Origin: Candidatus Rifleibacteriota bacterium
Lineage (GTDB): Bacteria; Muiribacteriota; Ozemobacteria; Ozemobacterales; Ozemobacteraceae
Direction: 5' to 3'
Assembly (NCBI GenBank): GCA_012520995.1
Contig: JAAYNI010000046.1
Coordinates: 42,650-106,649, forward strand
DNA: 64,000 bases
Shown here piece after piece: positions 18,905 through 58,365 of the stretch. Positions within the stretch are counted from its first letter, which is position 1, and each line of letters starts with the position of its first letter. The position numbers and the translations under genes are program-made. Under the pieces are notes generated by a model, which saw nothing but the letters and a program-made list of their open reading frames with translations, did not search any database and had not been told where the DNA came from.

Positions 18905-18912
18905 GCTTCTCG

Positions 18913-19347: not shown

Positions 19348-19349
19348 CT

Positions 19350-19754
19350 ATGAGCCGTTTGCGTCTTCTTTTGCTATCCGAGAAAGAAAAAGTCTCAGGA
19401 CTGATTCCCTCATATGGGGTTTTGCCAGTTCTATACGCCGTTTCCACTGACCCTTCAGACTTAACAAACTTTTGGAACAATGTAAAAATAGCAGATAAGT
19501 CTTTAGAGAAGCTTTTTACTGCCGCAATAGACCCTTCCCCTACAATGAAACCTAACTCAGAAGGCCTGCTCGTAGTAAACTTTGCAGAAAAAATTATTTC
19601 ATCATTTCAAAGATATCTGCCTATAAGAAGAGCTGGCACCTTGTCTCATCACAACGGCTTATTTTCAGAGCAGGAACTCCCAGACTCACAGCCCCTTTTC
19701 TACAAGCTGCCAACCTCATGGCAAATAAAAAATTATCCCTTTGGAAAAAAGTAG
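19350..19754 (+). CDS. Hypothetical protein
   Basis: ORF co-directional with and abutting its neighbours. No recognisable motif. Confidence 0.35.
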   Translation: MSRLRLLLLSEKEKVSGLIPSYGVLPVLYAVSTDPSDLTNFWNNVKIADKSLEKLFTAAIDPSPTMKPNSEGLLVVNFAEKIISSFQRYLPIRRAGTLSHHNGLFSEQELPDSQPLFYKLPTSWQIKNYPFGKK

Positions 19755-30949: not shown

Positions 30950-30951
30950 AC

Positions 30952-31479: not shown

Positions 31480-31505
31480 TTAAAAATATCAGGAGATATC
31501 TCACA

Positions 31506-42634: not shown

Positions 42635-44868
42635 CAAAAACTCCTGAAATTCAAATAAACTCTCTAAGAGAACAAATAAGACACCACGAATATCTATATT
42701 ATGTAAAATCGGAACCTGTCATATCTGATCAGGACTTCGATTACATGATGAAAGAACTCGAAAAGCTTGAAAGTGAAAATCCGAATCTAATCACTCCAGA
42801 CTCCCCGACTCAAAGAGTCGGAGAAGACAGCACTTCATTTGAGAAAGAAACACACAGAGTTCCAATGCTCAGCATAGACAACTCCTACAACGAGGCTGAA
42901 ATAGCAAACTGGCTGGAAAGATGTGAGAAAACTTTAGGTAAAAACCCTTTTCCGGTTGTAGCCGAATTAAAAATAGATGGTGTCTCAGGCTCTTTCAAAT
43001 ATCAAGAAGGATTACTGCAAACAGCTGTAACAAGAGGAGACGGTCAAACTGGCGATATTATAACAGAAAATGCCAGAACAATACGCAACCTGCCTCTCAA
43101 AATTGCTTCCGACTTTGACATGGATATAAGAGGCGAAATTTATACGCCTTTATCCACCTTCAATCAATGCAATGAAGAAATTATACAAGAAGCGGACAAA
43201 AAACTTGAAGAAAAAGAAATGGAGCTTTCTCAGATCGAAAAACAATTGCAAAGTTCTCTAACTCTTAGCGGTGCTCCTGATCCGCAACTTCAAGAAAAGC
43301 TTGAAAAATATCAAGAAGCATTTGAAAAGCTTAGTCACCAAAAGCCAAAACTTTTCAAAAACAGCAGAAACTTCACCTCAGGCACAATTAAATCATTAAA
43401 GCCAACGACAGTGAGCAAGCGAGGCCTGAGAGTCATGGTATATGGCATAGCTCAAGCTTTTGAACTTGGTTTTGAAACTCACACTCAGGTGATGAACTTC
43501 CTCCACAAAGAGGGCTTCAACATAAATGTGCGATGGAAAACCTGCTCAACATTTGAAGAAATTACGGCTTTTATAAACAACATAAAAAATGAAAAGGCTG
43601 ATTTCGACTTCGACATAGACGGCATTGTCTTGAAAATAGACAATCTGGCCGCTCAACAAGAACTTGGAACCACAGCTAAATCGCCGAGATGGGCATTAGC
43701 CTACAAATATCCTCAGGAAGCTGTAAAAACAAAAATTATAAACGTCAGATGGCAACCTGGCAGAACCAGACTGACCCCCGTAGCAGATCTCGAGCCTGTT
43801 CAAATTGCTGGTACAACTGTTTCAAAAGCCACTCTTCATAATGCGGATTTTATCAAAGAAAAAGACATAAGGCTCGGTGACGTTGTTTTCCTTGAAAAAG
43901 CCGGCTATATAATTCCGCAAATAATAGAACCAATCGTAGAAGAACGCGACGGAACCGAAAAAATAATTGAGCTGCCTACTATTTGCCCACTTTGTTCTAT
44001 GCCTACTGAAATAACTTCTCAACTTAGAAAAGTCTCTTCTTCAGACAAAAATGAAGATGCAGATCCAGACGAAGAAAATTCAGAGCAAGATTCAGATGAA
44101 AACATACTTCCAAGCATGCGTTCATTCACTCTAGTAACCTGCTCAAACCCTGAATGTTTCGGTTTTCTGCTGAACAGAACTCTAAACTTTGTTAAATGTG
44201 CTGAAATAGAGCATTTCGGCATAAAAAGAGTTGAAGGCGCAATAGAAAGTGGATTAATCAACAAGCTTGAAGACATTTTTACTCTGAATGAAACAGATTT
44301 AGCTGCCGTTGACTCTATCAAAGAAAAATCCGCTCAAAAAATAATTGCCAGCATAGCAGAAGCAGCAAAACAGCCTCTTGCCAATATAATTTGTGCCCTT
44401 GGCATACCCAATGTAGGCAAAGTTAGAAGTGCTGAGCTCGCCGATTTGGCAAATAATTCATTAGAAAACTTTTTAAGTTTTACTGAGAAAGATCTTCTTG
44501 AGGAAGAAAAAGAAGAAGCTGTAATAGGAAACAGTGTTCTAGAATTTATCAGAACTCCTTGCAACAAACCCCTGTTTGAGGCAATAGCCAAGTGGTGGAA
44601 AGGCCCGGACAAACAACAAAGTACAGAAGAAAGCAAACTCAAAGGTTTGGAATTTGTTTTTACAGGCTCTGCCACAATGCCTCGCAACAAACTATCAGAA
44701 CTAGCTGTTGCAAACGGCGCAAAAGTGAAATCTTCAACCACCAAACAAACAGACTATTTGGTAATAGGCTCCAATGAACCGCTGGATTATAACTCTTCTA
44801 AAAAGCAAAAAGCCGAAAAGTTCGGAGTGAAAATAATCAATGAATTTGATTTTTTAGCAATGCTCTAA
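42631..44868 (+). CDS. ligA: NAD-dependent DNA ligase
   Basis: Adenylation motif KIDGVSGSF, OB fold, Zn-finger CPLC...CSNPEC, HhH repeats and a C-terminal BRCT domain. At 745 aa it is long because of two insertions. Confidence 0.9.
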   Translation: MTKTPEIQINSLREQIRHHEYLYYVKSEPVISDQDFDYMMKELEKLESENPNLITPDSPTQRVGEDSTSFEKETHRVPMLSIDNSYNEAEIANWLERCEKTLGKNPFPVVAELKIDGVSGSFKYQEGLLQTAVTRGDGQTGDIITENARTIRNLPLKIASDFDMDIRGEIYTPLSTFNQCNEEIIQEADKKLEEKEMELSQIEKQLQSSLTLSGAPDPQLQEKLEKYQEAFEKLSHQKPKLFKNSRNFTSGTIKSLKPTTVSKRGLRVMVYGIAQAFELGFETHTQVMNFLHKEGFNINVRWKTCSTFEEITAFINNIKNEKADFDFDIDGIVLKIDNLAAQQELGTTAKSPRWALAYKYPQEAVKTKIINVRWQPGRTRLTPVADLEPVQIAGTTVSKATLHNADFIKEKDIRLGDVVFLEKAGYIIPQIIEPIVEERDGTEKIIELPTICPLCSMPTEITSQLRKVSSSDKNEDADPDEENSEQDSDENILPSMRSFTLVTCSNPECFGFLLNRTLNFVKCAEIEHFGIKRVEGAIESGLINKLEDIFTLNETDLAAVDSIKEKSAQKIIASIAEAAKQPLANIICALGIPNVGKVRSAELADLANNSLENFLSFTEKDLLEEEKEEAVIGNSVLEFIRTPCNKPLFEAIAKWWKGPDKQQSTEESKLKGLEFVFTGSATMPRNKLSELAVANGAKVKSSTTKQTDYLVIGSNEPLDYNSSKKQKAEKFGVKIINEFDFLAML

Positions 44869-44876
44869 AAGACATT

Positions 44877-44935
44877 GGCGAGTGCTGAGTGACGTGCAAG
44901 AAAGTTTTAGACAAAAACAAAGCACTAGAGTTTTT
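44877..44935. repeat. Partial copy D of the agtgct/agcactag element, terminator-like, just after ligA
   Basis: ggcgagtgctgagtgacgtgc ... caaagcactagag followed by TTTTTC. 6-bp inverted arms agtgct/agcact. Confidence 0.4.
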
Positions 44936-45028
44936 CATTGGCATATCTTGCATTTAAAAGGCTTTTCTTGTATGCTGTATTTGTTTGCAAAAGACAATTG
45001 TTAACTGGTTAAACAAAGGATAGACAGA

Positions 45029-45724
45029 ATGAAAAAACTTCTTAGCTTAACAAATCTGACCGCGTTGTTTGTGTCAGCTTGTTTGTTTGTGTCCGTTTTC
45101 GCCATACCTTCCATGCTTTCAGCACAGGAACCCGAGTATTTTTCTCCCGCTTTATTGCAAAACGCCTATCAGTATTATGCTGAACAACGCTTCGAAGAGG
45201 CTCACAACGAAATACAAAACCTTTTCAACAGAATACCTCCCGCAGGATACAATTACGAAAACGACAACCCTGACGAAGATGAACTAATCTCTGCAGAAGA
45301 ACTCAGGCTCTTTGACATATCAGTTTGCATTTCAGCAGCCTATGACAGCTTCTTCAATATGACGCCTGAAGCTCTTTGGATAACCAGAGCTGTTGAAGAA
45401 ACAGCCAAGCTCCAAGATGAAGCAACAACCGAAGAAATCATGGCTCTCCTTGACACAGCTAATGCGGTTTCCATGATTTGCAGCATGTATCAAAATGAAG
45501 ACTATGGCGATGTCCTAGACGCTATTCTTGAAACAGAAAAAGAAGCCGCACCCACGGATCACGAGTTTTTCATGTTTGAAATTAAAGCTCTAATCTCATG
45601 CGGTGAAAAACTGCTCAACCGAGACCTGATCAATCAAGCTCATTCTCTCTACAAGTTTGCCGTTGATGAAATGAAGCTTGAAGATTATAAAATGGCTCGT
45701 CTCAAAAAGATTCTCGGATATTGA
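45029..45724 (+). CDS. Secreted hypothetical protein
   Basis: Signal peptide MKKLLSLTNLTALFVSACLFVSVFAIPSMLSA. Confidence 0.45.
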   Translation: MKKLLSLTNLTALFVSACLFVSVFAIPSMLSAQEPEYFSPALLQNAYQYYAEQRFEEAHNEIQNLFNRIPPAGYNYENDNPDEDELISAEELRLFDISVCISAAYDSFFNMTPEALWITRAVEETAKLQDEATTEEIMALLDTANAVSMICSMYQNEDYGDVLDAILETEKEAAPTDHEFFMFEIKALISCGEKLLNRDLINQAHSLYKFAVDEMKLEDYKMARLKKILGY

Positions 45725-46491
45725 GCCTCAGATATAATCCTCAATCTTACGAGAAACAGCTCTCAAAATCAGGACTTCTCTCTGACAATAGTGCAGAGAC
45801 CCTTTCCGAAGACCTCAACATCAGAGTACAACAGCTGCTCGGAAAACCTGGGTTCAAGATTCCTAACCCTATAAAAAACTTCACAAATCTTGAACCTCAG
45901 GTTTTTAAAGAGTACGGCAGCGATGCCGTAAGACTCGCGTTGCTTACAGACCATGATAATCCCGAGAGCCTCTATGACTCCGCATATAACAGGCTCAGCC
46001 ATTGGTTTTCTCTTCTCAATATCGAGCAAAAAGCAGCTGAACAAGAGACAGATCTTGAAACAAGCTTCTTGCTCACCGCCCTCATGAGACTTGAAGAACA
46101 AATACTAGAAAGAAACAAACCCCACGCTGTGATTTCAATGGCTGCGAACTTCTTTAACCGACATAAAACCTTGAGCCTCTCTTACAGAACCAGAAAACTT
46201 CTGGGAACCTTGCTTTATCCTTTTGTGCCTGTTTTCGCAATTTCAGAGCTTCTTGATTCTTCCGCTGTGCCTGTTATTAACGAAATATATGATTTTTTTC
46301 CTGAATATCTCTTCACAGAATATAAAATAGAGAAAAGCTCTTGGCAAAAAATAGCTATAAAAAACGACCCGGCCGCTGGTAAAAGCTTTGAAAAAAGTTT
46401 ACTGGACTTGCCAAGACTTCAACCCTTGAGGAAAAATGGCGAGATATTATTTAAAACTACCCAAAGAGGTATCTTGATATGCCTCGCCTGA
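45721..46491 (+). CDS. Hypothetical protein
   Basis: ORF overlaps its neighbours by 4 nt and 13 nt. No recognisable motif. Confidence 0.4.
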   Translation: MSLRYNPQSYEKQLSKSGLLSDNSAETLSEDLNIRVQQLLGKPGFKIPNPIKNFTNLEPQVFKEYGSDAVRLALLTDHDNPESLYDSAYNRLSHWFSLLNIEQKAAEQETDLETSFLLTALMRLEEQILERNKPHAVISMAANFFNRHKTLSLSYRTRKLLGTLLYPFVPVFAISELLDSSAVPVINEIYDFFPEYLFTEYKIEKSSWQKIAIKNDPAAGKSFEKSLLDLPRLQPLRKNGEILFKTTQRGILICLA

Positions 46492-46916
46492 ATTCACAAA
46501 ACTGCAAGCATTTGCGTATTCTTATTTCCTTAGTATTAGCCTTAGGAGCTTTACATCTTTTTATGAAGCCTCCAGTTACACAAGCAAAAGATATTTTCAA
46601 AGAGAGTCTGCAAAAGCTTGATGTAACAATATACAAACAAGGAAAAAAAATTGCGGTACAATCTGTAACTCAGTCTTACCAAACAGCCTCGCCCGAACTA
46701 ATCACTTTTAATGACGCAACCTATTCGGAATTAACAGCCTGTAAATATATTTCTCCTGCAATAGCCGATCAGATCATAAAAGAACGAAAGAAACGTCCTT
46801 TTGATGATTGGGATGATTTTTCAAAAAGAATCAAAGGCATGGGAAAAGAAAAAATCTCATACTATAAAACAATAGGTCTAAAAATAAACAGAGAGCAAAA
46901 ACTTGAGACCCCCTAA
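46479..46916 (+). CDS. comEA: ComEA-like helix-hairpin-helix DNA-binding protein
   Basis: Signal/TM segment plus C-terminal ...ITFNDATYSELTACKYISPAIADQIIKERKKRPFDDWDDFSKRIKGMGKEKI, which resembles the ComEA HhH domain. It directly precedes comEC. Confidence 0.5.
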   Translation: MPRLNSQNCKHLRILISLVLALGALHLFMKPPVTQAKDIFKESLQKLDVTIYKQGKKIAVQSVTQSYQTASPELITFNDATYSELTACKYISPAIADQIIKERKKRPFDDWDDFSKRIKGMGKEKISYYKTIGLKINREQKLETP

Positions 46917-49077
46917 GAATGTTGTCAAAACCCTGAAACTCGACACTGTGACTCTCTTCACAGCTCTTTTTATTTCAGGCCTCCTTGTATCTTCAATTTT
47001 CCCTACTGAGTATGCCCTCCTCTGGCTTGCAGCTTCAATTCTTTGCTTTGCGGCATCTTTCAAAGCAAAGAATAAAAAAGCTTTAATATCTTTGCTTGCT
47101 GCAGCTGCCATTTTAGCCTCCATGTTTTATGCTGCAGTCAAATTTACTCCAAGCTTAGCCACAAAAGATCTTCAAACCCTTGAGGGAACAAAAGGGGAAA
47201 TCACAGGCATATTTTCAGGTTCCATAAAAAAGCTGAAGGACGGCTCATGCTCATTTCTTTTACGTGAATCCTATTACAGAACAGGTGAAAGGCTCTTAAG
47301 TCTTCCTATGCCAATAAGATGTAAAGCTCCAGCATCTGCCTGCCACATAGTTTCAGACAGTAAAGTCACCTTAACAGGCTATATGGAGGCATTGCCAAAG
47401 AGCAACCGAGTCCGTTTTGAAGCTGAAAATTGCAAGCTGGGAGAAAAAATTATAAAGTCCCATGTTTTCGCCTATTTTGATACACTTAGAAACAAAATAA
47501 TCACAAAGCTTCAGAGCATTTTAAAACCCGAACATGCTTCTTTCATATCTGCCATAATATTTGGCGAAACTTCATTTTTGGAAAACAACGAACTCTATCG
47601 CAAAACGGGAATCACTCATTTAATGGCTGTCTCTGGTCAACATTTAATGATCTTGGCTTTATTTTTGACTGCGATTCTCTACAAAACAGGAGTTCCCCCT
47701 CTTTCCAGAATCATATTCGTATCTGTATGCCTCTTGTTTTATGCGTTATTAACGGCAGGTTCACCATCGGTTTGGAGAGCCTTGCTCATGTATGTTTTCG
47801 TAGCCTTGACAGCCTATTTGGATGCGGAACACGTGCCAACCAGAGCAATTTCAATAGCCGCCCTGCTTATTTTGCTTTATAACCCTGCAAATCTGTACAG
47901 CCCTGCCTTTGTGCTCAGCTTCATAGCAGTGTTGTCTATAATATTTTTAAGAAAGCCTCTTGAAAAACTATTTTCCAAGCTCCGCCTGCCCCAATCAGTC
48001 AACCGATACTTGGCTGCGAGTACTGCCGCAAACATAGGCACTTTACCAGCTTCAGCCTGTTTATTTGGCTCGCTGCCCATTTCAGGTCTCATTGTAAACC
48101 CGCTTATTCTCTGGATATTTGCATATATATTCCCAATGTCTTTTACAATAGCCATTCTAGCTCTTATATCGCCAGAATTCGCCTTAAAATTCGTTCCCTT
48201 TCTCTCACTTGTCTTAGATGGAGTGACAATATTTTTGGAGTTTTTTGAAAAAAACTTGGGTCTATATTTTGAGTTCAACAAAATCTCTCCCTTCATAGCC
48301 TCCTTGCTGTATGCGATATTATTTGCCGCTGCAGCTTATTTCAACAGAAAAGAAGCAGAAACAGCAAAAGAAACTGCCAACTCTCTTGAAACAATCCGAA
48401 AAAAACGTTCTCAGCGACAAAGACAAAATCGTATTGAACAAGAGACTCAAAGTGAAAAAGAAGAACCAAAAGCTATAAAAGTCCCTCCTAAAAGGAAAGC
48501 CTTGGAAAACAGAAATTTATTGCGCGAAATAGATAATAGACTGATGCAACTTCCAAGACTTCCTGTTAAAGGCTCAGAATTGAAAATACATCCTAAGCTT
48601 GATCCAAAGCTCCTTCAAATAAACGCACAAAACCTTTACCATCGTGTCATGGAAGCTGACTCAAAACTATACATGGAAAGTCCTGACAGACTTTTAGAAT
48701 CTTGCACATCTCTTTTAGGAATAGTTTCCATGGAACTTCTTTCAAGAGTTTCGAGACTTTCCTCCAAGCCCAATTTTTCTCCATCTGATATAAAAATTAA
48801 GTTTCGCGTGGAACACAGAGAATTAGCTATGGCAGCAATTACTGACAGCATATTGGCTCCAGCCTTCATAATAGAAGTTCCTGACGAAAAATTTAAAATA
48901 ATGCTCTCAGAACTCCAAGGATTGTTCAATAAAGCAAGCGACCTTCTTGAAGGCCTTCTCTCGCCAACAGATTTATCAAAACTCCAAAAAGATTATGAAC
49001 TGCTGCGCAGCGAGCTTTTTTCTTGGTGCAGCGACTTTATAACTCTAGATCTGAATCAAAAACACAAAAAACCTTAA
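46903..49077 (+). CDS. comEC: ComEC/Rec2-family DNA-uptake channel protein lacking the metallo-beta-lactamase domain
   Basis: Competence-domain signature TGITHLMAVSGQHLMILALFL and a multi-TM core. The C-terminal ~240 aa are charged and helical, with no HxHxDH motif. The only start codon I see is the TTG at 46903, which is uncertain. Confidence 0.7.
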   Translation: MRPPKNVVKTLKLDTVTLFTALFISGLLVSSIFPTEYALLWLAASILCFAASFKAKNKKALISLLAAAAILASMFYAAVKFTPSLATKDLQTLEGTKGEITGIFSGSIKKLKDGSCSFLLRESYYRTGERLLSLPMPIRCKAPASACHIVSDSKVTLTGYMEALPKSNRVRFEAENCKLGEKIIKSHVFAYFDTLRNKIITKLQSILKPEHASFISAIIFGETSFLENNELYRKTGITHLMAVSGQHLMILALFLTAILYKTGVPPLSRIIFVSVCLLFYALLTAGSPSVWRALLMYVFVALTAYLDAEHVPTRAISIAALLILLYNPANLYSPAFVLSFIAVLSIIFLRKPLEKLFSKLRLPQSVNRYLAASTAANIGTLPASACLFGSLPISGLIVNPLILWIFAYIFPMSFTIAILALISPEFALKFVPFLSLVLDGVTIFLEFFEKNLGLYFEFNKISPFIASLLYAILFAAAAYFNRKEAETAKETANSLETIRKKRSQRQRQNRIEQETQSEKEEPKAIKVPPKRKALENRNLLREIDNRLMQLPRLPVKGSELKIHPKLDPKLLQINAQNLYHRVMEADSKLYMESPDRLLESCTSLLGIVSMELLSRVSRLSSKPNFSPSDIKIKFRVEHRELAMAAITDSILAPAFIIEVPDEKFKIMLSELQGLFNKASDLLEGLLSPTDLSKLQKDYELLRSELFSWCSDFITLDLNQKHKKP

Positions 49078-49108
49078 TAATAAAATCTCCATGTTTCACA
49101 TGAAACCA

Positions 49109-49245
49109 CTAGTGCTGTGTAGCATCTAAATGTTTATTGTCGGACAGATTTTTTTCTATCCACAGATGGACACAGATAGGATTTTTAAGCTAGCTTAAAA
49201 ATCAGTGCTGGGTGGTGAGTGACGAGTTGAATTATTTAGATTCAA
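49109..49245. repeat. Copy C of the dispersed intergenic element (ctagtgctgtgtagcatctaaa ... gtgagtgacgagttgaatt)
   Basis: Matches element B (61006-61130) at both blocks with similar spacing, and shares the 5' block with element A. Confidence 0.5.
49180..49203. promoter_or_regulatory. Perfect 24-bp palindrome gatttttaagctagcttaaaaatc upstream of the second pilin operon
   Basis: Self-complementary over all 24 nt. It lies about 230 nt upstream of the 49431 start codon. Confidence 0.5.
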
Positions 49246-49430
49246 ACACTAAAACTGACAACTGCTTTAAGATGCTAATAAATAGTCGAAACTTTAAGAT
49301 TTGAAAAATAGAGAACAACCTTGATGCAACTTTAATATACCAGACAGCAACAGAAAAGGCGGTTCACTTGCCCCCATTTTCCTTCTCATGTTAAAGTCTA
49401 TAGGCGACTTAATACATTTGGAAATTTAAC

Positions 49431-49889
49431 ATGATATCTCGTATAAAAAATGCCTATACTCTTCCAGAGCTTCTGATTACTGTTTTGCTGCTGGCAATAC
49501 TGCTATCCTTGGGCATTGTTTTTTCCTCAATAATGGCAAAAGGGCAAAAAAACAAGAGTTATGCAGTCGCTCTAGCTTTTGCTCAGCAAGCCATAGAGTT
49601 GGCAAGAGGCGCTCCCTTTGAAATCTTAAGTTCATCTGATGCTGGTGAAGCCAGTGTTGAATATGATCTGAATAACAAATCCAGCGACAATGATTTGCTT
49701 ATTCCTACTTTAGAAAACGGTGAAGCTGTTTATACCAGAACAGTGAAAATAAGAGACATAAAAACAAAAGATGACCCTGACAGTAACGCTGGCTTGAAAC
49801 ATATCAGCGTAAAAGTTGAATGGATCTCCCCTGAAAATAACAAGCCTGATACTCTTGAAATTAACTCGCTGATAGCCAATATCAACTAA
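49431..49889 (+). CDS. Prepilin-type pseudopilin/minor pilin
   Basis: N-terminus MISRIKNAYTLPELLITVLLLAILLSLGIV. Confidence 0.65.
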   Translation: MISRIKNAYTLPELLITVLLLAILLSLGIVFSSIMAKGQKNKSYAVALAFAQQAIELARGAPFEILSSSDAGEASVEYDLNNKSSDNDLLIPTLENGEAVYTRTVKIRDIKTKDDPDSNAGLKHISVKVEWISPENNKPDTLEINSLIANIN

Positions 49890-49890
49890 T

Positions 49891-50640
49891 ATGTACAAAA
49901 GTTTCAACAAAAACCTATCGGAAAAAAGAGCCTTCACTCTAACAGAGATGTTATTGGCCTTAGCTCTCACCGCAATGGTTTTAGCAGCCGCTTACAAAGT
50001 TTTTATTGAACAACAAAAACTGGTGAAATTTTCGGTTGAAACCGTTCATGCAAATGAATCTTTCAGAAAAGTGACCTTCTTTATGGGAGAAGACATAAAG
50101 AAAGCCACCCGCATAGTCAGACCTACGCCAGTTCCATTGGCCTCCGCTTCCGAGCTGATAACAAAAGTCGGCACTATTATGACCGTACAGACTTCCGAGA
50201 TAGATCCAAGAATCAAATTTGACAGTTCTCTTGGCACGCAGATTGCCAAGAGAACTCACATTGACTACGAGCTGGAACTTATGCCAAACTTCAATGAAGA
50301 TTCCGAAGAAGTGCCCGTTTACAGACTAATACGAAATGCCGTTCTCGACGAGGAAGACGGAACCCATTCAGGACAAAGACAAGTGATAGCGGAAAACATA
50401 CAAGATCTTATAATCTACAGAACTGTTCGCGAGCCATTCAAAATTCATTCACTCTCAGAACCTTCAGATCGCATGATTGAGCCTAGAAGTCTAAGCGAAA
50501 CAGGAACAGGCAATAATATAATACACGTAAAAATGGCTATCGAGCGTGACAGATATAAAAAAGAAAAGGGCTCGGTTTACTCGGTTACTATGGAAACCTC
50601 CTTTTACAAACGCGGAAAAGAGATATTCCTGAACCCATGA
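49891..50640 (+). CDS. Prepilin-type minor pilin (PilW/GspJ-like)
   Basis: N-terminus ...KRAFTLTEMLLALALTAMVLAAAYKVF. Confidence 0.6.
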   Translation: MYKSFNKNLSEKRAFTLTEMLLALALTAMVLAAAYKVFIEQQKLVKFSVETVHANESFRKVTFFMGEDIKKATRIVRPTPVPLASASELITKVGTIMTVQTSEIDPRIKFDSSLGTQIAKRTHIDYELELMPNFNEDSEEVPVYRLIRNAVLDEEDGTHSGQRQVIAENIQDLIIYRTVREPFKIHSLSEPSDRMIEPRSLSETGTGNNIIHVKMAIERDRYKKEKGSVYSVTMETSFYKRGKEIFLNP

Positions 50641-52886
50641 AAAATTTGCTGAATTCAAAAAGAGGATACGGAATTATCATTGTCATTCTTTTCATGACAG
50701 TGATGTTTGTATTGTTCGCCGTTTATTTTAAGATGCAAAGCGCTCATTCCTTTTTATATTCCAAGCATGTCAGACGCTCAGTCGCTTCAAACCTTGCGGA
50801 AGGCGTTTTAAACTGCATTATTGCCGAACTGGATGCTAACAGAACATTCGCCACTCACTGGAACTACGACGCAAAAGACACATACACTTTCAAAAGCCCT
50901 GTAAAAAGCCGTGAAACATCCTTGGGGCCTATACCAAACTTTAAAATTGGAGGAGTAAAAAACGGAATTTACTATGGAAGCAGCGACTATGGCACTTTTA
51001 AAGCAAAGTTCGCCCCTTGCTTCGGAGGCTTCGAAAACCCAAAAACCAAAACTCTTTCTGAAAGCAGCATGTACACAAAAGCCGAGATAGCAGTTAAAAC
51101 TGAGGCTGGAAAAACCTCAAAAGATGAGCCTGTCTGCATCAAACTTTCAGCTATTCTCGAAAGACGATTCCCTTCGGCAGAACATGCTCTATATGACGGA
51201 GAAGTATTAGACATAGGCGCTTTGGGTCCATATAACAGCAGCCCCAACGAAATTCGCAGAGCAAGACTTTACGGACATCACTCCATTTTCTTCACTTCAA
51301 AAGGCGCAGGCGATCATGGAACAGAGCTTTTCGAAATTGAAAAAATCGAAACTCCAGGAATGATAAGAGTTACATCAGATACAGATGTCAAATTTTCTGA
51401 CAACACCTCTACTGTGCTGTGCCCTGAAAACGACTCTTTGAACATAACCGCCTTCAACTCTTTTGAAGGCTATCTGATAGACGGCACACATGGAGCTCAC
51501 TCTATAAAACTGAATCGCATTCCTAAAGAGAGATTGCTGAATTACGTGCAAACATATAAGAAAAGCTCTGGAGTTTACATAGACAGTTCGACTTTGCCAG
51601 AATCTGAATATAGAAATCCTTATGATCCTCAAACAAAGTATTACGATCTTGACTTCGGCGAATACAGATTAACAAGCGAGGGCGAAAAACTCGGAAGCGA
51701 CGATCCAAAATGTATAAAAGAAAAAAACGGAGAAAAAATTGTTGTTTATTCAAAAGTTCCCTTAAGAATATGGGGCTCTCCCGACAAAAGCATAACCATC
51801 TACAGCGAAAAAGATATTGTTATAGCCGGTGATTACAACCAAAAGCATTCGACAAGACAAGTATATAAGGACAACCGATATTTAGACTATGCTACAAGAA
51901 TTTACAACGGGAAATACAACCATAAAGTAGGCTCTCTGATAATGACCGAAGGAAGAATAATCATAGACTATTCTGATCCTTCTCTATTTGCAAAAAACGA
52001 AATAAAGCCATATTTTCTTTGGAAACTTGCTGAAAGCATGAATCCCTATTCCCAGAAAATAGCCGGCGAAATCAAAACCGCCCTAGCTCCTCCAGATCCC
52101 TCTGAGAGAACAGCTATTTTCGGAGTTGAAGAAAACATAGACGCTACAGGCAAACTTATACCCAGACTTGGCACCATAGCGTTTCTCTACAACTTTCCTG
52201 AAGTTGATGAAGGCGGCAGCTATAATGCAAACATGGAAGACCTCATAGCATTTTTCACTCCAGGAACTCCAAAATCCATATTCCCTATAAAAAATACACA
52301 GGGTCGCGAAGAGCTTATAGAAATAATTAAGGATGCTTGCAGAACAAACGGCGATTTGACGCTAGCAGAGCAAGATGAAATATTCAACTTTGCTTGGCAA
52401 AAAGCTCTAGAAGACCGTAAAGAAGCTCCTGACGAAAAATGTGCAATAATGGAGATAATTCCCCATCTCTTTAAGGATGCCGCCAAAGACCACAGGGACG
52501 GTCTATTTATACCGGAAATGACAATAAACTCTTTCCTGATCAGTTCAGAAAAACGTTCCTCAATCTGGAGACAAGGCAATAATTCCAACAAGGCCATGGA
52601 TGAAATAGGCAACGTCGGAGATAAGAAATATATTAAACCGCCAGGATTTATAATACTTAGAATTTACGGCGGATATGCTCGTATAGGACGAAAAGAACCT
52701 TCATATTTTATTTCAGGAGAACATACCACAAAAACAGGAGTTCTCAGACGCATAGTCTGGGACAATACTAACCTGACAAATCAAGACTATCGCCCATTAG
52801 AGCAGCCTGTTACCCACAACGTGCTGACAATAAGCGAAACTTTAATAACAGAAAAAGAATATGAAGAGTTTAGCGGCAAAGAATAA
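50637..52886 (+). CDS. Large pilus-associated protein (PilX/PilY1-like position), N-terminally membrane-anchored
   Basis: 749 aa. N-terminal TM GIIIVILFMTVMFVLFAVYF; overlaps the upstream pilin stop. No recognisable catalytic motif. Confidence 0.45.
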   Translation: MKNLLNSKRGYGIIIVILFMTVMFVLFAVYFKMQSAHSFLYSKHVRRSVASNLAEGVLNCIIAELDANRTFATHWNYDAKDTYTFKSPVKSRETSLGPIPNFKIGGVKNGIYYGSSDYGTFKAKFAPCFGGFENPKTKTLSESSMYTKAEIAVKTEAGKTSKDEPVCIKLSAILERRFPSAEHALYDGEVLDIGALGPYNSSPNEIRRARLYGHHSIFFTSKGAGDHGTELFEIEKIETPGMIRVTSDTDVKFSDNTSTVLCPENDSLNITAFNSFEGYLIDGTHGAHSIKLNRIPKERLLNYVQTYKKSSGVYIDSSTLPESEYRNPYDPQTKYYDLDFGEYRLTSEGEKLGSDDPKCIKEKNGEKIVVYSKVPLRIWGSPDKSITIYSEKDIVIAGDYNQKHSTRQVYKDNRYLDYATRIYNGKYNHKVGSLIMTEGRIIIDYSDPSLFAKNEIKPYFLWKLAESMNPYSQKIAGEIKTALAPPDPSERTAIFGVEENIDATGKLIPRLGTIAFLYNFPEVDEGGSYNANMEDLIAFFTPGTPKSIFPIKNTQGREELIEIIKDACRTNGDLTLAEQDEIFNFAWQKALEDRKEAPDEKCAIMEIIPHLFKDAAKDHRDGLFIPEMTINSFLISSEKRSSIWRQGNNSNKAMDEIGNVGDKKYIKPPGFIILRIYGGYARIGRKEPSYFISGEHTTKTGVLRRIVWDNTNLTNQDYRPLEQPVTHNVLTISETLITEKEYEEFSGKE

Positions 52887-52892
52887 AAGCCT

Positions 52893-53261
52893 TCAAAATA
52901 TAACTGGTTTAGGCGAAGCATTTATAGCGACAACAAGATCAAAGTGATTGGCTAATCTGCCTGCCCTGAGAGAGTTTTTAATTTTAAATTTTGTGACAGC
53001 CTGTTCCGAAACAAGGATTCTGACTCCAGCTTTTTCCAGCTCAAGAACTGCCGGCAAGAGCTTATGACCTTCCGAACAAACCTCAGCCGCTTCATTCCAG
53101 AAAACCACTGTTTCAGGCACATTGTAATTTTCAGCCAAAGCTTCTAAAAAGGATTCAAAAGAGCTGACTCCCAAGTCGTTATTTTCGCCTATATAAGGTT
53201 TGGTAAACATTATAAGATAGGGAAGCAATCTCTCAGGAGGTTCCCAGATATTCTGTCGCAT
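52893..53261 (-). CDS. DsrE/DsrF (YchN)-like small protein
   Basis: 122 aa with a layout reminiscent of the DsrE fold (hydrophobic N-terminal strand, ...VVFWNEAAEVCSEGHKLL..., C-terminal ...DLVVAINASPKPVIF). Weak. Confidence 0.35.
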   Translation of the reverse strand: MRQNIWEPPERLLPYLIMFTKPYIGENNDLGVSSFESFLEALAENYNVPETVVFWNEAAEVCSEGHKLLPAVLELEKAGVRILVSEQAVTKFKIKNSLRAGRLANHFDLVVAINASPKPVIF

Positions 53262-53373
53262 TGATAGATACTCGAAAAATATATCCTGTTTAATATTATT
53301 GCTCCTTAGTGTGATCCCTAAGAAATTGTACTATAACAAAAAGAAAAATTGAAGATTAATTATTTCTATATTC

Positions 53374-53402
53374 TTGACAGAGATAAGGCAGTGTGCTAAT
53401 TT
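53374..53402 (+). promoter_or_regulatory. Candidate promoter (-35 TTGACA, TG-extended -10 TGCTAATTT)
   Basis: TTGACA at 53374-53379, 17-nt spacer, TAATTT at 53397-53402 preceded by TG. It lies 95 nt upstream of the ATG at 53497. Confidence 0.4.
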
Positions 53403-53496
53403 TGTTATGTTATTAAGCCCGGAAAAGCTGACGGGTATATTATCTTTTAAACAGCCTCTAAATACTTAGGAGGACTTGAAAGGAGACTTGTTTTAC

Positions 53497-54270
53497 ATGA
53501 TGAAACGCATCTCAATTATAGCGACGGCAATACTTTTTATCTCTGCCGCATTTACCGCTACCGCTGCAGACAGTGTGCTGTTGCAATATAATCCCGCAGC
53601 AGGAACCACAACCAAGTATCAGATGAATCTGAAGGGCAATACAACTGTTGCCGCTTATGGGCGCTCCCAGACCACCAACCTTGAAACCAATATGCTGATC
53701 CAGCAAAAGGTTACAGGCGTTGATAGAGTCGGCAATGTCACCATGGAAACCCTTATTATGGATGGCAAAATCCTGATTAACGGTCAAGCCACACAGCTCC
53801 CTGAACTCGGCAACCTCACAACCGTCAAAATGGCAAAAGACGGCGAAATTCTTGAGCAATCTGAAGGCATGGGCGATGCTACACAGCAAAACGCTCAAAT
53901 GCAAATCAGATTCCCCAAAACTCCCGTAAGCGTAGGTCATACTTGGAAAAGCAGAATTGAACCCAATCCTCAGCTTCCCATTCCTATGGAAACAACCTAT
54001 GAAATCGTTTCCCTCACCGAAATGGTTAATGGTGAAAAATGTGCTGTTATCAAATCTACAGTCACAACCGACAAAGCAGCTGGCGGCAGCATCAACCTTG
54101 ATGTCAGAGCTGACGGCACAATCTGGTTTGCCTATGAAAAAGGCATAATGCTCAGAAACGAAGTCAGATCCAGAATGCTCATGCTCATGCAAAACGATAT
54201 GGGCGACGGCAACAAAGAAAACATTCAGACCAGAATGAATCTCATTCTCAGAATGGATGTAGTAAAATAA
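53497..54270 (+). CDS. Secreted hypothetical protein (beta-rich)
   Basis: Start at the ATG at 53497 after AGGAGG / AAAGGAGA. Signal peptide MMKRISIIATAILFISAAFTATAA. Confidence 0.5.
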   Translation: MMKRISIIATAILFISAAFTATAADSVLLQYNPAAGTTTKYQMNLKGNTTVAAYGRSQTTNLETNMLIQQKVTGVDRVGNVTMETLIMDGKILINGQATQLPELGNLTTVKMAKDGEILEQSEGMGDATQQNAQMQIRFPKTPVSVGHTWKSRIEPNPQLPIPMETTYEIVSLTEMVNGEKCAVIKSTVTTDKAAGGSINLDVRADGTIWFAYEKGIMLRNEVRSRMLMLMQNDMGDGNKENIQTRMNLILRMDVVK

Positions 54271-54311: not shown

Positions 54312-54394
54312 TGTTGTAAAGCATCAAGCTAGGCTCATTGACAACAATATATGGAGTTGGAAACCAGCTTAACGGCTATTAACTTTGTGTTCTT

Positions 54395-54430
54395 GGCTCC
54401 GCTTTTACCCGAGGCGGAGCCTTTTTATAT
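54395..54430 (+). terminator. Rho-independent terminator (ggctccgc-loop-gcggagcc + T-run)
   Basis: 8-bp GC-rich stem at 54395-54402 and 54414-54421, then TTTTTATAT. Confidence 0.7.
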
Positions 54431-54513
54431 ATCCCGATACTACCCGGTATCACGTTCTTTTTTTTACCTACCCAATCAATATCACTACACTTCTTTATGA
54501 AGGAGGACAATCT

Positions 54514-55422
54514 ATGAGATTGACTAAGAGGCTTATGCGACTGACAGCAGCTACTCTCGTAGTAACCGTGCTGTTCATGACAATGCTCACAGCTCCCGCA
54601 GAAGCCGCCGGACTCTTCTCCAGGCTCAAAAAGACAGCAACTGAGAAGAAGTCTCCTGTCAAGACAGCTCTTGTAGGTGTAGCTGCGGTTGGCGGCGCTA
54701 TTCTGGCAGCCCCACTTCTGTCCACTGCTCTCGGATTCGCATCCGGTTCAGTTGCAGGTTTGGCTGGCGGAGCGACGACAGCGTTGGCTGCAGCAGGTAC
54801 TGGCTTGGCTGGAATCGGAGGCGCAATTTGGGGTGGACTATCAGCTGCAGGCGGTTTCGTAACAGGCGCTATTGGCGCACTGGGCGGAGCATTAGGCAGT
54901 ATGTTCGCAGGGATTGCAGGCTTCATTGGTTCAATTATCTCAAGTCCGTTGCTTGTCCCGGCTCTTTTGATAGCAGGAGCAGCAGTTGCAGGTTATTATC
55001 TGTATAAGAAATACAAGAGACAACCCCAGACCATAACCAACAGCAACAATATTCCCGCAAAGAAAGCAGACGCCATCAAGCAACAACCGGTCACAACCGT
55101 AACAGCTCATAAGGCTGAGATACCAATAGCAGCTTCACAAGCGCAAACACAAGCACAAGAAGAAACGGCTATGCCCGTTACACAAGGAAATGCGCCGCTG
55201 CCAGCAGTATCAGGCTCTGATGAACTCACTCAGGCTCACGCCGCTTACGTAAAAGCATATAACGACTATATGAGTAAGGTAACAAGAATCGGCGGCTCTG
55301 AAAATCCTGATGAGGAAATGAGATCCAATATGCTCCGCGATGACACTCAGCAAGCTCTGAACGAATATCGCAAGGCATATAACAAGTATGTGACTCTCTT
55401 GAGAGCGAACAAAAGCAAGTAG
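54514..55422 (+). CDS. Secreted/membrane Gly-Ala-rich glycine-zipper protein with conserved C-terminal YRKAYNxY motif
   Basis: Start at the ATG at 54514 (AAGGAGG ribosome-binding site). Signal peptide, about 130 aa of GxxxG/A-rich hydrophobic sequence, a basic KKYKRQP stop-transfer segment, and C-terminal ...QALNEYRKAYNKYVTLLRA. Confidence 0.6.
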   Translation: MRLTKRLMRLTAATLVVTVLFMTMLTAPAEAAGLFSRLKKTATEKKSPVKTALVGVAAVGGAILAAPLLSTALGFASGSVAGLAGGATTALAAAGTGLAGIGGAIWGGLSAAGGFVTGAIGALGGALGSMFAGIAGFIGSIISSPLLVPALLIAGAAVAGYYLYKKYKRQPQTITNSNNIPAKKADAIKQQPVTTVTAHKAEIPIAASQAQTQAQEETAMPVTQGNAPLPAVSGSDELTQAHAAYVKAYNDYMSKVTRIGGSENPDEEMRSNMLRDDTQQALNEYRKAYNKYVTLLRANKSK

Positions 55423-55743: not shown

Positions 55744-58365
55744 ATGAAAAGAAAAATTTTTATTCTGCTTCTTTTGCTTTTGATATTGCCCCCCTTTTTT
55801 ACACCTTATAAAGCTCATGCAACATCAGAGCAAAATCCCGTAGAGATTATTGGCACATGGAATCTGATCAACAAAAAAGAATATCATGACACTGAAATTC
55901 TTCAGGTATTGCCTACTCGCGACGGAAAGATAAACACTCTTTCAATTGATCAAAATGGAACCTTTGTAAATACTCGTTACGAAGAAAGTCGCCTTAACTT
56001 TAACAAACAAGGGCAAAAACTCCCTCAATACGAAATGAAAGATGGGGGCACAACTAGAACAGTAAATTCTTGGACTTGCAGCGGCAACCTTTTGAAATTG
56101 AAAAACCGAGGCGACTGGTATTATGAACTAAAAGACAATAATCTCTGGCTGAAAGATCGTGCTGAAAATGCAAGAGTAATACGTGTGTTCAGCAAAACAA
56201 AACAACCTTCGCCATTGCCTGGCGATCTTCTTCTGGGAACATGGCATATGACTCAGCTGAAAGAGTATCATGATTCTGAACCTCTTCAGGTATGGCCTAA
56301 CCAAGCAGGAGAAACAAACACTCTGCAAATAAATAAAGACGGAACTCATACTACCATAAACTATCAAAAAGAGCGTCTTAATTTTGAGCGACATGGTTAT
56401 AACTTGCCACAATATGAAATAAAAACTGGAGATACAGTAACCCAAAAAGAAGGTCACTGCAAAGCTTACAATAACTCTGTCTTGTGGCTGGAAGGACAAG
56501 ATGCTTGGGCATACAAACTTAAAAACGACAATCAGGAATTGTGGCTCCAAGATCGTGCCGACAAACCAAATACAATATATGTTTACTCTAAAACTCCGCC
56601 GAAAAGCACCTTACCCTCTACGGAGCTTATAGGCACTTGGCATATAATCAAACAAAAAGAGTATCATGATTCTGAACCTCTTCAGGTATGGCCTAACCAA
56701 TCAGAAAAAACTCATACTCTGGTAATCAATAAAGACGGAACCCACTCAAGAACTGATTATGAACAATATCGTCTCAATTTCAACAACTATGGTCATGAGT
56801 TGTCACAATATCAAATAAAGGATGGAGGCACAGCAGTCCAAAAAGAAGGCTACGCTAAATCCTATTATGACAATGTTTTATGGCTGGAAGGCAAAGACAA
56901 CTGCACATACGAATTAAAAAACGACAATCAGGAGTTGTGGCTGAAAAACCGTGTCAAAGATGCCAATACAATATATATTTACAGCAAGAAGTCGCCACAA
57001 AACACCTTGCCGACTGCTGATTTGACAGGCACTTGGCACATGATTCAGCTTAAAGAGTATCATGATTCTGAACCCTTCAAGATATGGCCTACCGAAGACG
57101 GAAAAAACAACACTCTAATTATTAATAAAGACGGAACTCATACTACCATAAACTATCAAAAAGAGCGTCTTAATCTCAGCCGCTACGGTTATGAGCAATT
57201 ACAATACCAAATAAAGAATGAAGTCTCAGAAAAGAAGGAAGGATACGCTAAATCTTATTACGGCGATGTTTTGCGATTAGAGAATCAGGAAGACTGGTAT
57301 TACGAACTTAAAGGCAACGAATTATACCTTAAGAATCGCCTTAAAGATGCCAATACAATACGTATTTACAGCAAAACTCCTCCACAAAGCCCTTTACCGC
57401 AAGCATCTCTCATTGGCACATGGAATATCTATAAGATAAAATGGCATGACAGCGATCTGCATAGGGTAACACCACACGAAGATGGAAATAGAGACAGCAT
57501 AACTATTGATGCAAAAGGAACCCACTCAAGCGCTACTTATAACCACAGCCGCCGCCAATTTGCAAACGAAGAAAAAACATATACAACACACGGCGATCCG
57601 AAAAAACGCTCAGGTTTCTGCAGATCATATTTTGGAAATGTTCTAATACTTGAAAATATGGGAACCTTCAGTTATGAAGTTAATGACAATGAACTGAGCC
57701 TTAAGGATCTCCCAACAGACCCTCGAAGCATTGACCTTTACAAAAAAGTTTCTTCACCGAAAACCCCAGCAGAGGGCACAGCCGTTGCAACAAAACCTGT
57801 CACCTCTGACACAAAAGTTTCAGGAGCAACTCAAGAAGCAAAGACTGGAGCTACCAGCACAAAAACTTCAGGAACAACCCAAGGAACAAAGACTGAAACT
57901 GCTGGCACAAAAACTTCAGGAACAACTCAAGAAGCAAAGACCGGAGCTACTGGCAAAAAAACTACAGATTCAGCTCAAGAAGCAAAAACTGGAGCTGCCG
58001 GCACAAAAACTACAGGTTCAACCCAAGAAACAAAGACTGGAACTACTGGCACAAAAGCTTCGGGAACAACCCAAGGAACAAAGACGACCTCGCCCACACA
58101 AAAGACGCAAACATACGATGAAGCATATGACACAGATATACCGCCTTTTCCTGCAAATCTGCCTGTTCCAACAGAAGAAGATGACTATGAATTTATGCAG
58201 GTTTATCTAGATTACGTAACAACGCATAAAGAATACACAATTCTTAAAGCTTCAGCTAAAGAACTCGGCGTCCGCATACCTCCAGGCAAACTTGAACAAG
58301 CGCTGGACGCTTATCGGAAGGCATATAACAGATATAAAAATATGGCTCTCACCAGGAAGAAGTGA
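55744..58365 (+). CDS. Large secreted protein: 5 tandem ~130-aa GTW-motif domains + Thr/Gly/Lys-rich 13-aa repeats + conserved C-terminal YRKAYNxY motif
   Basis: AGAGGA ribosome-binding site; signal peptide. Five repeats each begin L(I/L/T)GTW(N/H)...KEYHDSEPLQVWP, then TSGTTQEAKTGAT-type repeats, then a C-terminal ...QALDAYRKAYNRYKNMAL. Confidence 0.7.
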   Translation: MKRKIFILLLLLLILPPFFTPYKAHATSEQNPVEIIGTWNLINKKEYHDTEILQVLPTRDGKINTLSIDQNGTFVNTRYEESRLNFNKQGQKLPQYEMKDGGTTRTVNSWTCSGNLLKLKNRGDWYYELKDNNLWLKDRAENARVIRVFSKTKQPSPLPGDLLLGTWHMTQLKEYHDSEPLQVWPNQAGETNTLQINKDGTHTTINYQKERLNFERHGYNLPQYEIKTGDTVTQKEGHCKAYNNSVLWLEGQDAWAYKLKNDNQELWLQDRADKPNTIYVYSKTPPKSTLPSTELIGTWHIIKQKEYHDSEPLQVWPNQSEKTHTLVINKDGTHSRTDYEQYRLNFNNYGHELSQYQIKDGGTAVQKEGYAKSYYDNVLWLEGKDNCTYELKNDNQELWLKNRVKDANTIYIYSKKSPQNTLPTADLTGTWHMIQLKEYHDSEPFKIWPTEDGKNNTLIINKDGTHTTINYQKERLNLSRYGYEQLQYQIKNEVSEKKEGYAKSYYGDVLRLENQEDWYYELKGNELYLKNRLKDANTIRIYSKTPPQSPLPQASLIGTWNIYKIKWHDSDLHRVTPHEDGNRDSITIDAKGTHSSATYNHSRRQFANEEKTYTTHGDPKKRSGFCRSYFGNVLILENMGTFSYEVNDNELSLKDLPTDPRSIDLYKKVSSPKTPAEGTAVATKPVTSDTKVSGATQEAKTGATSTKTSGTTQGTKTETAGTKTSGTTQEAKTGATGKKTTDSAQEAKTGAAGTKTTGSTQETKTGTTGTKASGTTQGTKTTSPTQKTQTYDEAYDTDIPPFPANLPVPTEEDDYEFMQVYLDYVTTHKEYTILKASAKELGVRIPPGKLEQALDAYRKAYNRYKNMALTRKK
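55846..57790 (+). repeat. Five in-frame tandem coding repeats, period about 384-396 nt
   Basis: The GTW codon triplets recur at 55852, 56236, 56632, 57028 and 57415. Repeats 2-4 share long near-identical DNA stretches, for example aaagagtatcatgattctgaacctcttcaggtatggcctaaccaa. Confidence 0.8.
57780..58110 (+). repeat. About 39-nt (13-aa) tandem repeats encoding a Thr/Gly/Lys-rich linker
   Basis: Repeating acaaaaacttcaggaacaac(c/t)caag(g/a)a(a/g)caaagac(t/c)gga... units, about 7-8 copies. Confidence 0.75.

What the first reader, a model, noticed from the sequence alone, without database searches (positions are those of the whole stretch)
49431..52886. Second, unlinked minor-pilin operon ending in a 749-aa membrane-anchored protein
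This operon has the same grammar as the 29.8-kb operon: pseudopilin, pseudopilin, then a large protein with an N-terminal pilin-like TM. The proteins are unrelated in sequence. Two paralogous tip-complex sets, with comEA/comEC nearby, suggest alternative pilus tips for adhesion or DNA uptake.
Basis: inference. Interest (0 to 1): 0.5.

Follow-up and report, generated by a model that had tools for sequence, protein, structure and literature searches.

The report
Pilus-tip minor pilin trio, Riflebacteria
Three overlapping genes in an uncultured Riflebacteria genome encode two small pilin-like proteins and a 749-residue pilin-like protein carrying a bulky beta-solenoid, most likely the cap that starts and tips a type IV pilus, as ComZ is proposed to do in Thermus; this assigns a likely role to a protein family so far annotated only as hypothetical, but the kind of system is already known.

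Summary
Three translationally coupled genes lie at 49431-52886 (152, 249 and 749 aa). The first two carry prepilin signals, and Glu+5 is invariant in 58/58 relatives of each.

I read the trio as a PilV/GspI-like, PilW/GspJ-like, PilX/GspK-like minor-pilin set. Its large subunit would cap a type IV filament.

The cassette is conserved across Riflebacteria in at least two paralogous clades, and in Muiribacteriota. The same MAG has a further copy near PilB/PilC-like genes.

The comEA/comEC adjacency is not conserved; in relatives that block is inverted or absent. A DNA-uptake role is therefore possible but unsupported, and the ligand is unknown.

There is no sequence similarity to ComZ, GspK or PilY1. 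The nearest precedents are ComZ and the solenoid-bearing PilX of cyanobacteria. I rate this a new member of a known kind, of moderate interest.

The parts
49078..49430 (+). Intergenic region between comEC and the first pilin gene; presumed promoter region, with no promoter identified.
   Evidence: The sigma-70 scan gave no site upstream of the ATG above shuffle expectation. A sigma-54-like GG-N10-GC at 49358-49371 is not conserved in relatives: 16/58 upstream regions against 34% of background windows.
49431..49889 (+). Minor pilin 1 (152 aa). Prepilin leader MISRIKNA|YTLPE. PilV/GspI-like by position and size; fold not tested.
   Evidence: TIGR02532 scores 21.2 bits against a cut-off of 16.3. 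Pfam N_methyl hits 41/50 family members. Glu+5 is present in 58/58 relatives. It always lies directly upstream of gene 2.
49891..50640 (+). Minor pilin 2 (249 aa). Prepilin leader ..EKRA|FTLTE. GspJ/PilW-class fold.
50637..52886 (+). 749-aa GspK/PilX/ComZ-like tip pilin (whole gene).
50637..50837 (+). Leader (aa 1-10, MKNLLNSKRG|) and long N-terminal alpha-1 helix (aa 11-67) lacking Glu5.
   Evidence: Helices span aa 11-40 and 43-67 in the model. Gly10 is present in 51/52 homologues, and +5 is Ile/Val in all.
50856..51167 (+). Beta-sheet following alpha-1 (aa 74-177), taken to be the pilin-fold sheet.
51189..51971 (+). Beta-solenoid region (aa ~185-445), ice-binding-protein/ComZ-like.
51993..52481 (+). 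Helical domain (aa ~453-615), acidic.
   Evidence: The model has seven helices here. The family median pI is 4.9. No specific structural match was assigned.
52515..52847 (+). C-terminal beta region (aa ~627-737). It may complete the pilin sheet or form a separate sandwich.
   Evidence: DSSP is.

Best explanation
The three genes encode a core minor-pilin set of a type IV filament, most likely a type IV pilus.

Proposed mechanism:
- All three proteins are inserted into the inner membrane by their N-terminal hydrophobic helix.
- A prepilin peptidase encoded elsewhere trims each one: after Ala8 in protein 1, Ala14 in protein 2 and Gly10 in protein 3.
- They then bundle through their alpha-1 helices, as in the GspI-GspJ-GspK / PilV-PilW-PilX complex.
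- The 749-aa subunit sits on top. It lacks Glu5, so nothing is added above it.
- The complex primes polymerisation of a major pilin by a PilB/PilC-type motor. It ends up at the filament tip.
- At the tip, the beta-solenoid and helical domains of the large subunit plug the tip and present a binding surface.

Shown here: the prepilin motifs and their conservation; the GspJ-like fold of protein 2; the ComZ/GspK-like fold and missing Glu5 of protein 3; the cassette's conservation and duplication; and PilB/PilC-like genes in the same MAG.

Inferred: processing, heterotrimer formation, tip location and priming.

Unknown: the ligand. DNA, a polysaccharide or another surface are all open. I lean towards adhesion or surface engagement over DNA.
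For: - Operon structure: a 1-nt gap and a 4-nt overlap.
- Class III signal peptides: family hits, with Glu+5 in 58/58 relatives of each small protein.
- Protein 3 N-terminus: Gly-1 in 51/52 and no Glu5. This is the property described for the terminal subunit PilX (bioRxiv 10.64898/2026.02.12.705559); that GspK shares it is from my own knowledge of the family.
- Protein 2 fold: GspJ class.
- Synteny: the trio is contiguous in essentially all of 73 genome loci while its flanks vary. It is also kept in Muiribacteriota.
- Duplication: whole-cassette paralogues sit in the same genomes. A third copy in the same MAG lies 6-9 kb from MshEN-T2SSE and T2SSF genes.
- Precedent: cyanobacterial PilX proteins all carry such a solenoid, and separate minor-pilin sets prime separate pili.
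Against: - The window holds no pilus motor, secretin, prepilin peptidase or major pilin gene among the ORFs I scanned.
- No FimU/GspH-like fourth core subunit lies next to the trio.
- Foldseek found nothing significant in the PDB (best E 0.77).
- Sequence profiles find no PDB or Pfam relative.
- The fold of protein 1 was not tested.
- Both small proteins in this genome have Ala, not Gly, at -1.
Confidence: 0.72

Rival explanations
1. The trio is specifically the tip of a competence pilus. The 749-aa protein would be the extracellular DNA receptor, as proposed for ComZ, handing DNA to ComEA and ComEC, which are encoded just upstream.
For: The best structural match is ComZ, which binds DNA (PMC6561018). 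In this genome the trio starts 354 bp after comEA-comEC on the same strand. Cyanobacteria dedicate one solenoid-PilX set to competence.
Against: The adjacency is not conserved. Only 6 of 73 loci have comEA/comEC within 10 kb, and there the ligA-comEA-comEC block is on the opposite strand with ligA nearest the trio. The deeper-branching relatives inspected have no comEA/comEC in the 10-kb flanks. The solenoid and helical domains are acidic, with family median pI 5.2 and 4.9. There is no sequence similarity to ComZ, so its DNA-binding lysines cannot be mapped. In ten deep-branching relatives the gene directly downstream is a CHASE2-GGDEF cyclase, which points to surface/c-di-GMP behaviour instead.
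Confidence: 0.2
2. The trio is the GspI-GspJ-GspK tip of a type II secretion pseudopilus and serves protein export rather than a surface pilus.
For: The gene order I-J-K, the GspJ-like fold of protein 2 and the GspK match of protein 3 fit a T2SS equally well. Riflebacteria are diderm (10.1101/2021.05.31.446380). The ATPase and platform found near the third paralogue do not discriminate T2SS from T4P.
Against: No GspC/D/G/H/L/M genes lie near any copy. From my own knowledge, GspK proteins are roughly 300 aa, so a 749-911-aa cap would be unusually large. All solenoid-bearing relatives described so far (ComZ, cyanobacterial PilX) belong to pili. Several paralogous sets per genome is the pattern described for pili.
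Confidence: 0.1
3. The 749-aa protein is not a filament subunit. It would be a signal-anchored surface or periplasmic protein (adhesin or carbohydrate-active enzyme) that merely shares an operon with two pilins.
For: [quoted passage not shown] Many invariant Asp/Asn/Arg/Lys residues lie in the solenoid region. Conservation is uniform, unlike many adhesins.
Confidence: 0.06

Closest known systems
ComZ (with PilA2) of Thermus thermophilus, PDB 6QVI
Solenoid-bearing PilX of cyanobacteria (Com and EPS/HpsA subfamilies)
   Same: A PilX-class terminal minor pilin whose pilin fold is interrupted by an ice-binding-like solenoid, sometimes with further unknown domains. It is encoded with PilV and PilW. 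Several sets per genome are proposed to prime different filaments, and the solenoid is proposed to replace the PilY1 plug (bioRxiv 10.64898/2026.02.12.705559).
   Different: A profile search of 1.84 billion representative proteins returned only 77 hits; those I looked up are from Riflebacteria or Muiribacteriota. No FimT/FimU-type gene is in the cassette. I did not compare structures with the cyanobacterial models.
GspI-GspJ-GspK pseudopilus tip complex of type II secretion (PDB 3CI0; XcpVWX 5VTM)
   Different: No T2SS genes lie nearby. Family models are not met: TIGR01711 gspJ scores 15.7 bits against a cut-off of 64.85, and there is no Pfam T2SSK hit. The large subunit also carries a solenoid, whereas GspK's inserted domain is alpha-helical.
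FimU-PilV-PilW-PilX-PilY1 priming complex of type IVa pili (Pseudomonas, Myxococcus)
   Same: The same proposed logic: minor pilins prime assembly and stay at the tip, and the terminal subunit lacks Glu5 (PMC7541494 listed).
Tapirins of Caldicellulosiruptor (PDB 4WA0, 6N2B, 6N2C)
   Different: The match is weaker than to ice-binding proteins. From my own knowledge, tapirins are not pilin fusions. Polysaccharide binding is untested here.

Membership tests
Type IV pilin-like proteins (class III signal peptide; Pfam PF07963 / TIGR02532) | Short basic leader, Gly/Ala at -1, hydrophobic +1, Glu at +5, then about 20 hydrophobic residues. | tested here: met
   Protein 1 scores 21.2 bits on TIGR02532 (cut-off 16.3) but 17.7 bits on Pfam N_methyl, below its cut-off of 21.2. 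Protein 2 scores 25.6 bits on Pfam, above the cut-off. Glu+5 is present in 58/58 relatives of each; position -1 is Ala in about half.
GspJ / PilW class minor pseudopilin (protein 2) | GspJ-type globular fold. | tested here: met
GspJ / PilW class minor pseudopilin (protein 2) | Passes the curated sequence model (TIGR01711 gspJ / Pfam T2SSJ). | tested here: not met
   TIGR01711 scores 15.7 bits against a cut-off of 64.85, over the N-terminal helix only. None of 51 family members hits a globular-domain Pfam family.
GspK / PilX class terminal pseudopilin (protein 3) | Pilin-type N-terminus with conserved Gly-1 but no Glu5. | tested here: met
   Gly10 is present in 51/52 homologues, and +5 is Ile/Val in all.
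GspK / PilX class terminal pseudopilin (protein 3) | GspK-like pilin fold. | tested here: met
GspK / PilX class terminal pseudopilin (protein 3) | Passes the sequence models Pfam T2SSK or PilX_N. | tested here: not met
   The only Pfam hit at E<=0.1 is DUF3149, on the TM helix. There is no NCBIfam hit.
ComZ-type tip pilin | Pilin fold fused with a large ice-binding-like beta-solenoid. | tested here: met
ComZ-type tip pilin | Sequence homology to ComZ. | tested here: not met
   The family profile finds no PDB sequence at E<=10, and 6QVI is in that library.
ComZ-type tip pilin | Binds DNA and is required for natural transformation. | not testable with these tools
   This needs biochemistry or genetics. 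Domain charge is acidic. Linkage to comEA/comEC is not conserved.
PilY1 / PilC tip adhesin | C-terminal PilY1-type beta-propeller. | tested here: not met
GspI / PilV class minor pseudopilin (protein 1) | GspI/PilV-type globular fold. | not tested
The assignment rests on gene position, size and the prepilin motif. The PDB profile search hits only N-terminal helices.
Core minor-pilin priming complex (four subunits) | A FimU/FimT/GspH-type adapter encoded with the set. | tested here: not met
   The cassette has three genes in all loci. The upstream neighbours vary and are not pilins. An adapter may be encoded elsewhere.

The most novel reading that the evidence does not exclude
Solenoid-capped PilX/ComZ-type priming complexes may be an ancestral trait of diderm Terrabacteria (Deinococcota, Cyanobacteria, Riflebacteria, Muiribacteriota) that stands in for PilY1. 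In Riflebacteria the repeatedly duplicated V-W-X cassettes would each prime a functionally distinct filament from one shared motor. The copy in this window, next to comEA/comEC in this lineage, could be the DNA-uptake tip. The copies followed by a CHASE2-GGDEF cyclase in deeper lineages could feed surface contact into c-di-GMP signalling.
Probability: 0.2. Interest if true: 0.6.

Novelty: new member of a known kind. Interest (0 to 1): 0.4.

Why it matters
This assigns a probable role to a protein family that is unnamed or annotated only as hypothetical. The family is small: 77 representative clusters among 1.84 billion proteins.

It extends the ComZ / cyanobacterial-PilX architecture, a terminal minor pilin with a built-in beta-solenoid cap, to two further candidate phyla of diderm Terrabacteria. 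That is useful for tracing how pilus tips evolved where PilY1 is absent.

Riflebacteria genomes carry several complete tip cassettes, which fits the 'one motor, several specialised filaments' model.

For annotation, two points follow. Gene-callers truncate these pilins and lose the motif; the NCBI start for gene 2 is an example. And Ala at -1 should be accepted when scanning this phylum for pilins.

It does not open a new mechanism.

Tried and rejected
- Sequence-level assignment of the 749-aa protein failed. Pfam gave only a TM-helix hit, NCBIfam gave nothing, and the family profile against PDB sequences gave nothing at E<=10.
- The afdb50 library was unavailable, so annotated AlphaFold-database relatives could not be checked.
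- A sigma-54-type promoter (GGCGGTTCACTTGC at 49358-49371) looked plausible. GG-N9-TGC occurs upstream of only 16/58 relatives, against 34% of random 360-nt windows, so I rejected it as chance.
- The sigma-70 and terminator scans were no better than shuffles.
- The Rfam scan of 48500-54000 gave one weak hit inside the coding sequence of gene 1 (STnc470, 21 bits against a gathering score of 80). I dismissed it.
- A conserved operonic link to comEA/comEC is rejected by synteny.
- I first took the same-MAG paralogue P0083 to belong to the second Riflebacteria clade. It is about equally distant (22-30%) from both clades, so it is a third lineage. Its PilB/PilC neighbours are not found next to clade A or B copies.
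I rebuilt the alignment for protein 2 from a database search. No quota was left for protein 1.
- The literature searches found no paper describing pili in Riflebacteria.
Full report
**1. What is there**

The region holds three co-oriented ORFs: 49431-49889 (152 aa), 49891-50640 (249 aa) and 50637-52886 (749 aa). Genes 1 and 2 are separated by one base. Genes 2 and 3 overlap by ATGA. Upstream is a 353-bp gap after a ComEC gene (46903-49077). That gene is itself preceded by a comEA-like helix-hairpin-helix gene (46479-46916). Downstream, 6 nt away, is a convergent YedF-like gene.

The organism is an uncultured member of Candidatus Riflebacteria / Ozemobacteraceae from biogas-digester metagenomes. 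The 749-aa protein is identical to GX221_06780 of a Riflebacteria MAG.

**2. The two small proteins are prepilins**

Protein 1 starts MISRIKNA|YTLPELLITVLLL. Protein 2 carries ..SEKRA|FTLTEMLLALAL. The prepilin domain models hit both.

I collected 73 related genome loci and extracted the upstream genes. The motif [GA]|[FYMLV][TS]xxE is present in 58 of 61 copies of each gene, and Glu+5 is present in all 58. Pfam N_methyl hits 41/50 and 51/51 family members. No globular-domain family hits either protein.

Position -1 is Ala in about half of the copies, including both window genes.

Protein 1 is assigned to the GspI/PilV position by gene order and size only. Its fold was not tested.

**3. The 749-aa protein**

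Its N-terminus, MKNLLNSKRG|YGIIIVILFM.., is pilin-like but lacks Glu5. In the family, Gly10 is present in 51/52 sequences, basic residues precede it, and position +5 is always Ile or Val. This is the property described for the terminal subunit PilX, which caps the filament. That GspK shares it is from my own knowledge.

No Pfam, NCBIfam or PDB-sequence relative exists.

With 55 homologues as the alignment, AlphaFold gives a confident model (pLDDT 89.1, pTM 0.85). Its elements in order are:
- a long N-terminal helix (aa 11-67);
- a beta-sheet (aa 74-177);
- a region of short repeated strands (aa ~185-445);
- a helical domain (aa ~453-615);
- a C-terminal beta region (aa ~627-737).

ComZ was described as exactly this combination: a GspK-like pilin fold carrying an ice-binding-like solenoid. 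Its authors argued on steric grounds that it sits at the pilus tip (PMC6561018).

Foldseek did not recover any of this, so the similarity is remote. I could not see the aligned residue ranges, so my domain boundaries and the insertion topology are inferred.

**4. Conservation**

The 749-aa family is small and taxonomically narrow. There are 76 homologues in the 5.8-billion-sequence search, and every named one but a mislabelled bin is from Riflebacteria. A profile search of 1.84 billion representatives gives only 77 hits. The most distant named hits are from Candidatus Muiribacteriota.

In every locus with enough upstream DNA, the three genes are contiguous and in the same order, while the flanks differ. 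Muiribacteriota keep the same trio: 168/235/911 aa and 175/241/904 aa.

Riflebacteria genomes usually carry two copies of the whole cassette. One is an orthologue clade (large protein 34-51% identical to the window's). The other is a paralogue clade in which all three genes are diverged together (27-30%, 25-33% and 21-27%). Examples are Ozemobacter sibiricus L055 + L065 and Rifleibacterium amylolyticum L049 + L061.

The window's own MAG has a further, more divergent cassette (160/215/809 aa, GX221_06065) with the same N-terminal grammar. It lies 6-9 kb downstream of an MshEN-T2SSE ATPase and a T2SSF platform protein. The organism therefore has a type IV filament motor.

**5. What about comEA/comEC?**

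In the window they are immediately upstream on the same strand. Among the 73 loci, only six have them within 10 kb. In those six, the block ligA-p231-p256-comEA-comEC is on the opposite strand with ligA nearest the trio. In the deeper-branching relatives inspected, no comEA/comEC is present in the 10-kb flanks.

The adjacency here therefore looks like a local rearrangement, not a conserved functional link.

In ten deep-branching orthologous loci, the gene directly after the large protein is a CHASE2-GGDEF diguanylate cyclase.

The solenoid and helical domains are acidic (family median pI 5.2 and 4.9) and are as conserved as the pilin part. None of this proves or excludes DNA binding. ComZ also lacks obvious positive patches.

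**6. Relation to the 29.8-kb operon**

That operon encodes, in order:
- a 156-aa prepilin (A|FTLLE);
- a 212-aa prepilin (A|YTLME);
- a 175-aa protein with a Glu5-less pilin-like N-terminus;
- a 431-aa FG-GAP beta-propeller with an ordinary-looking signal peptide;
- a TPR protein.

The small-medium-terminal grammar is shared, but the 'large pilin-like protein' is not.

Only the first genes are detectably related (hhalign E 2e-5, 76% probability, over 122 columns). The others match only in the N-terminal helix or not at all.

**7. Interpretation**

The best-supported reading is a PilV/GspI-like, PilW/GspJ-like, PilX/GspK-like minor-pilin set. It would prime a type IV filament and stay at its tip, with the 749-aa subunit as the cap and the presenter of a binding or plug module.

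A 2026 preprint reports the same design in cyanobacteria. All their PilX proteins carry an ice-binding-like solenoid. Distinct minor-pilin sets prime competence pili versus motility/EPS pili. The solenoid is proposed to replace PilY1.

Riflebacteria are placed among diderm Terrabacteria. From my own knowledge, Thermus and cyanobacteria belong to that grouping too, so a common origin of solenoid-capped tips is conceivable. It is not shown, because no sequence similarity links the families.

The rivals are a T2SS pseudopilus tip, a dedicated DNA receptor, and a non-filament anchored protein. They are listed with their evidence in the rival explanations.

**8. Verdict**

It is overstated on the competence link and on paralogy with the other window operon.

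It is a new, sequence-orphan member of a known kind (ComZ / solenoid-PilX tip pilins). It has moderate interest for pilus evolution and for annotating candidate phyla.

Noticed in passing
window 29841-34200 (+): Another minor-pilin-type operon. It encodes a 156-aa and a 212-aa prepilin (both with Ala at -1), a 175-aa protein with a Glu5-less pilin-like N-terminus, a 431-aa FG-GAP beta-propeller with a signal-peptide-like N-terminus (possibly a PilY1-like tip partner) and a 472-aa TPR protein. Muirbacterium also has TPR and VWA genes upstream of its trio.
   Followed up: partly
L035, L037, L040, L041, L045, L046, L050, L054-L056 (about 12340-14700 in locus coordinates): In deep-branching Riflebacteria, a CHASE2-GGDEF diguanylate cyclase gene follows the large tip-pilin gene directly on the same strand. 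It is absent at this position in the window. This suggests a link between this tip set and c-di-GMP signalling.
   Followed up: partly
L084/L085 1102-12430: The same MAG (GX221) carries a third, divergent cassette (160/215/809 aa) a few kb downstream of an MshEN-T2SSE ATPase and a T2SSF platform protein. A Flp/Fap-type pilin gene lies about 10 kb further on.
   Followed up: partly
window 49431-50640 and 58 related loci: Ala replaces the canonical Gly at position -1 of the prepilin cleavage site in about half of these minor pilins: 31/58 for protein 1 and 29/58 for protein 2.
   Followed up: partly
window 49891-50640: The public annotation of this gene (GX221_06775) is 228 aa. It starts 21 codons later, which removes the prepilin motif. 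Conservation supports the 249-aa start.
   Followed up: yes
window 46903-49077 (+): The ComEC homologue (724 aa) has the Competence membrane domain (aa 219-482) but no metallo-beta-lactamase domain hit. Instead it has a charged C-terminal extension of about 240 aa with no family match.
   Followed up: no
window 42631-49077 versus L011, L014, L021, L023, L031, L048: The block ligA-p231-p256-comEA-comEC is inverted relative to the pilin trio in related genomes, with ligA proximal. In the window it is co-oriented, with comEC proximal. This indicates a local inversion.
   Followed up: partly
window 221-5687 (+): Flagellar export/rotor genes fliF (C-terminal part), fliG, fliH, fliI and fliJ. An extra 147-aa ORF (2354-2797) consists only of a FliG C-terminal domain.
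   Followed up: no
window 54385-55422 and 55744-58365 (+): Two neighbouring proteins share a C-terminal motif..QALNEYRKAYNKY.. and ..QALDAYRKAYNRY... The 873-aa protein contains about five tandem repeats of roughly 130 aa, followed by a Thr/Gly/Lys-rich repeat tract (seen by eye).
   Followed up: no
window 49358-49371 (+): A sigma-54-like element, GGCGGTTCACTTGC, lies 60-73 nt upstream of the first pilin gene. It is not conserved in relatives and is probably chance.
   Followed up: yes
window 18071-19754 (+): Three consecutive ORFs (277, 144 and 134 aa) have no Pfam match. They lie upstream of two large TPR proteins, one of which has an N-terminal double zinc ribbon.
   Followed up: no
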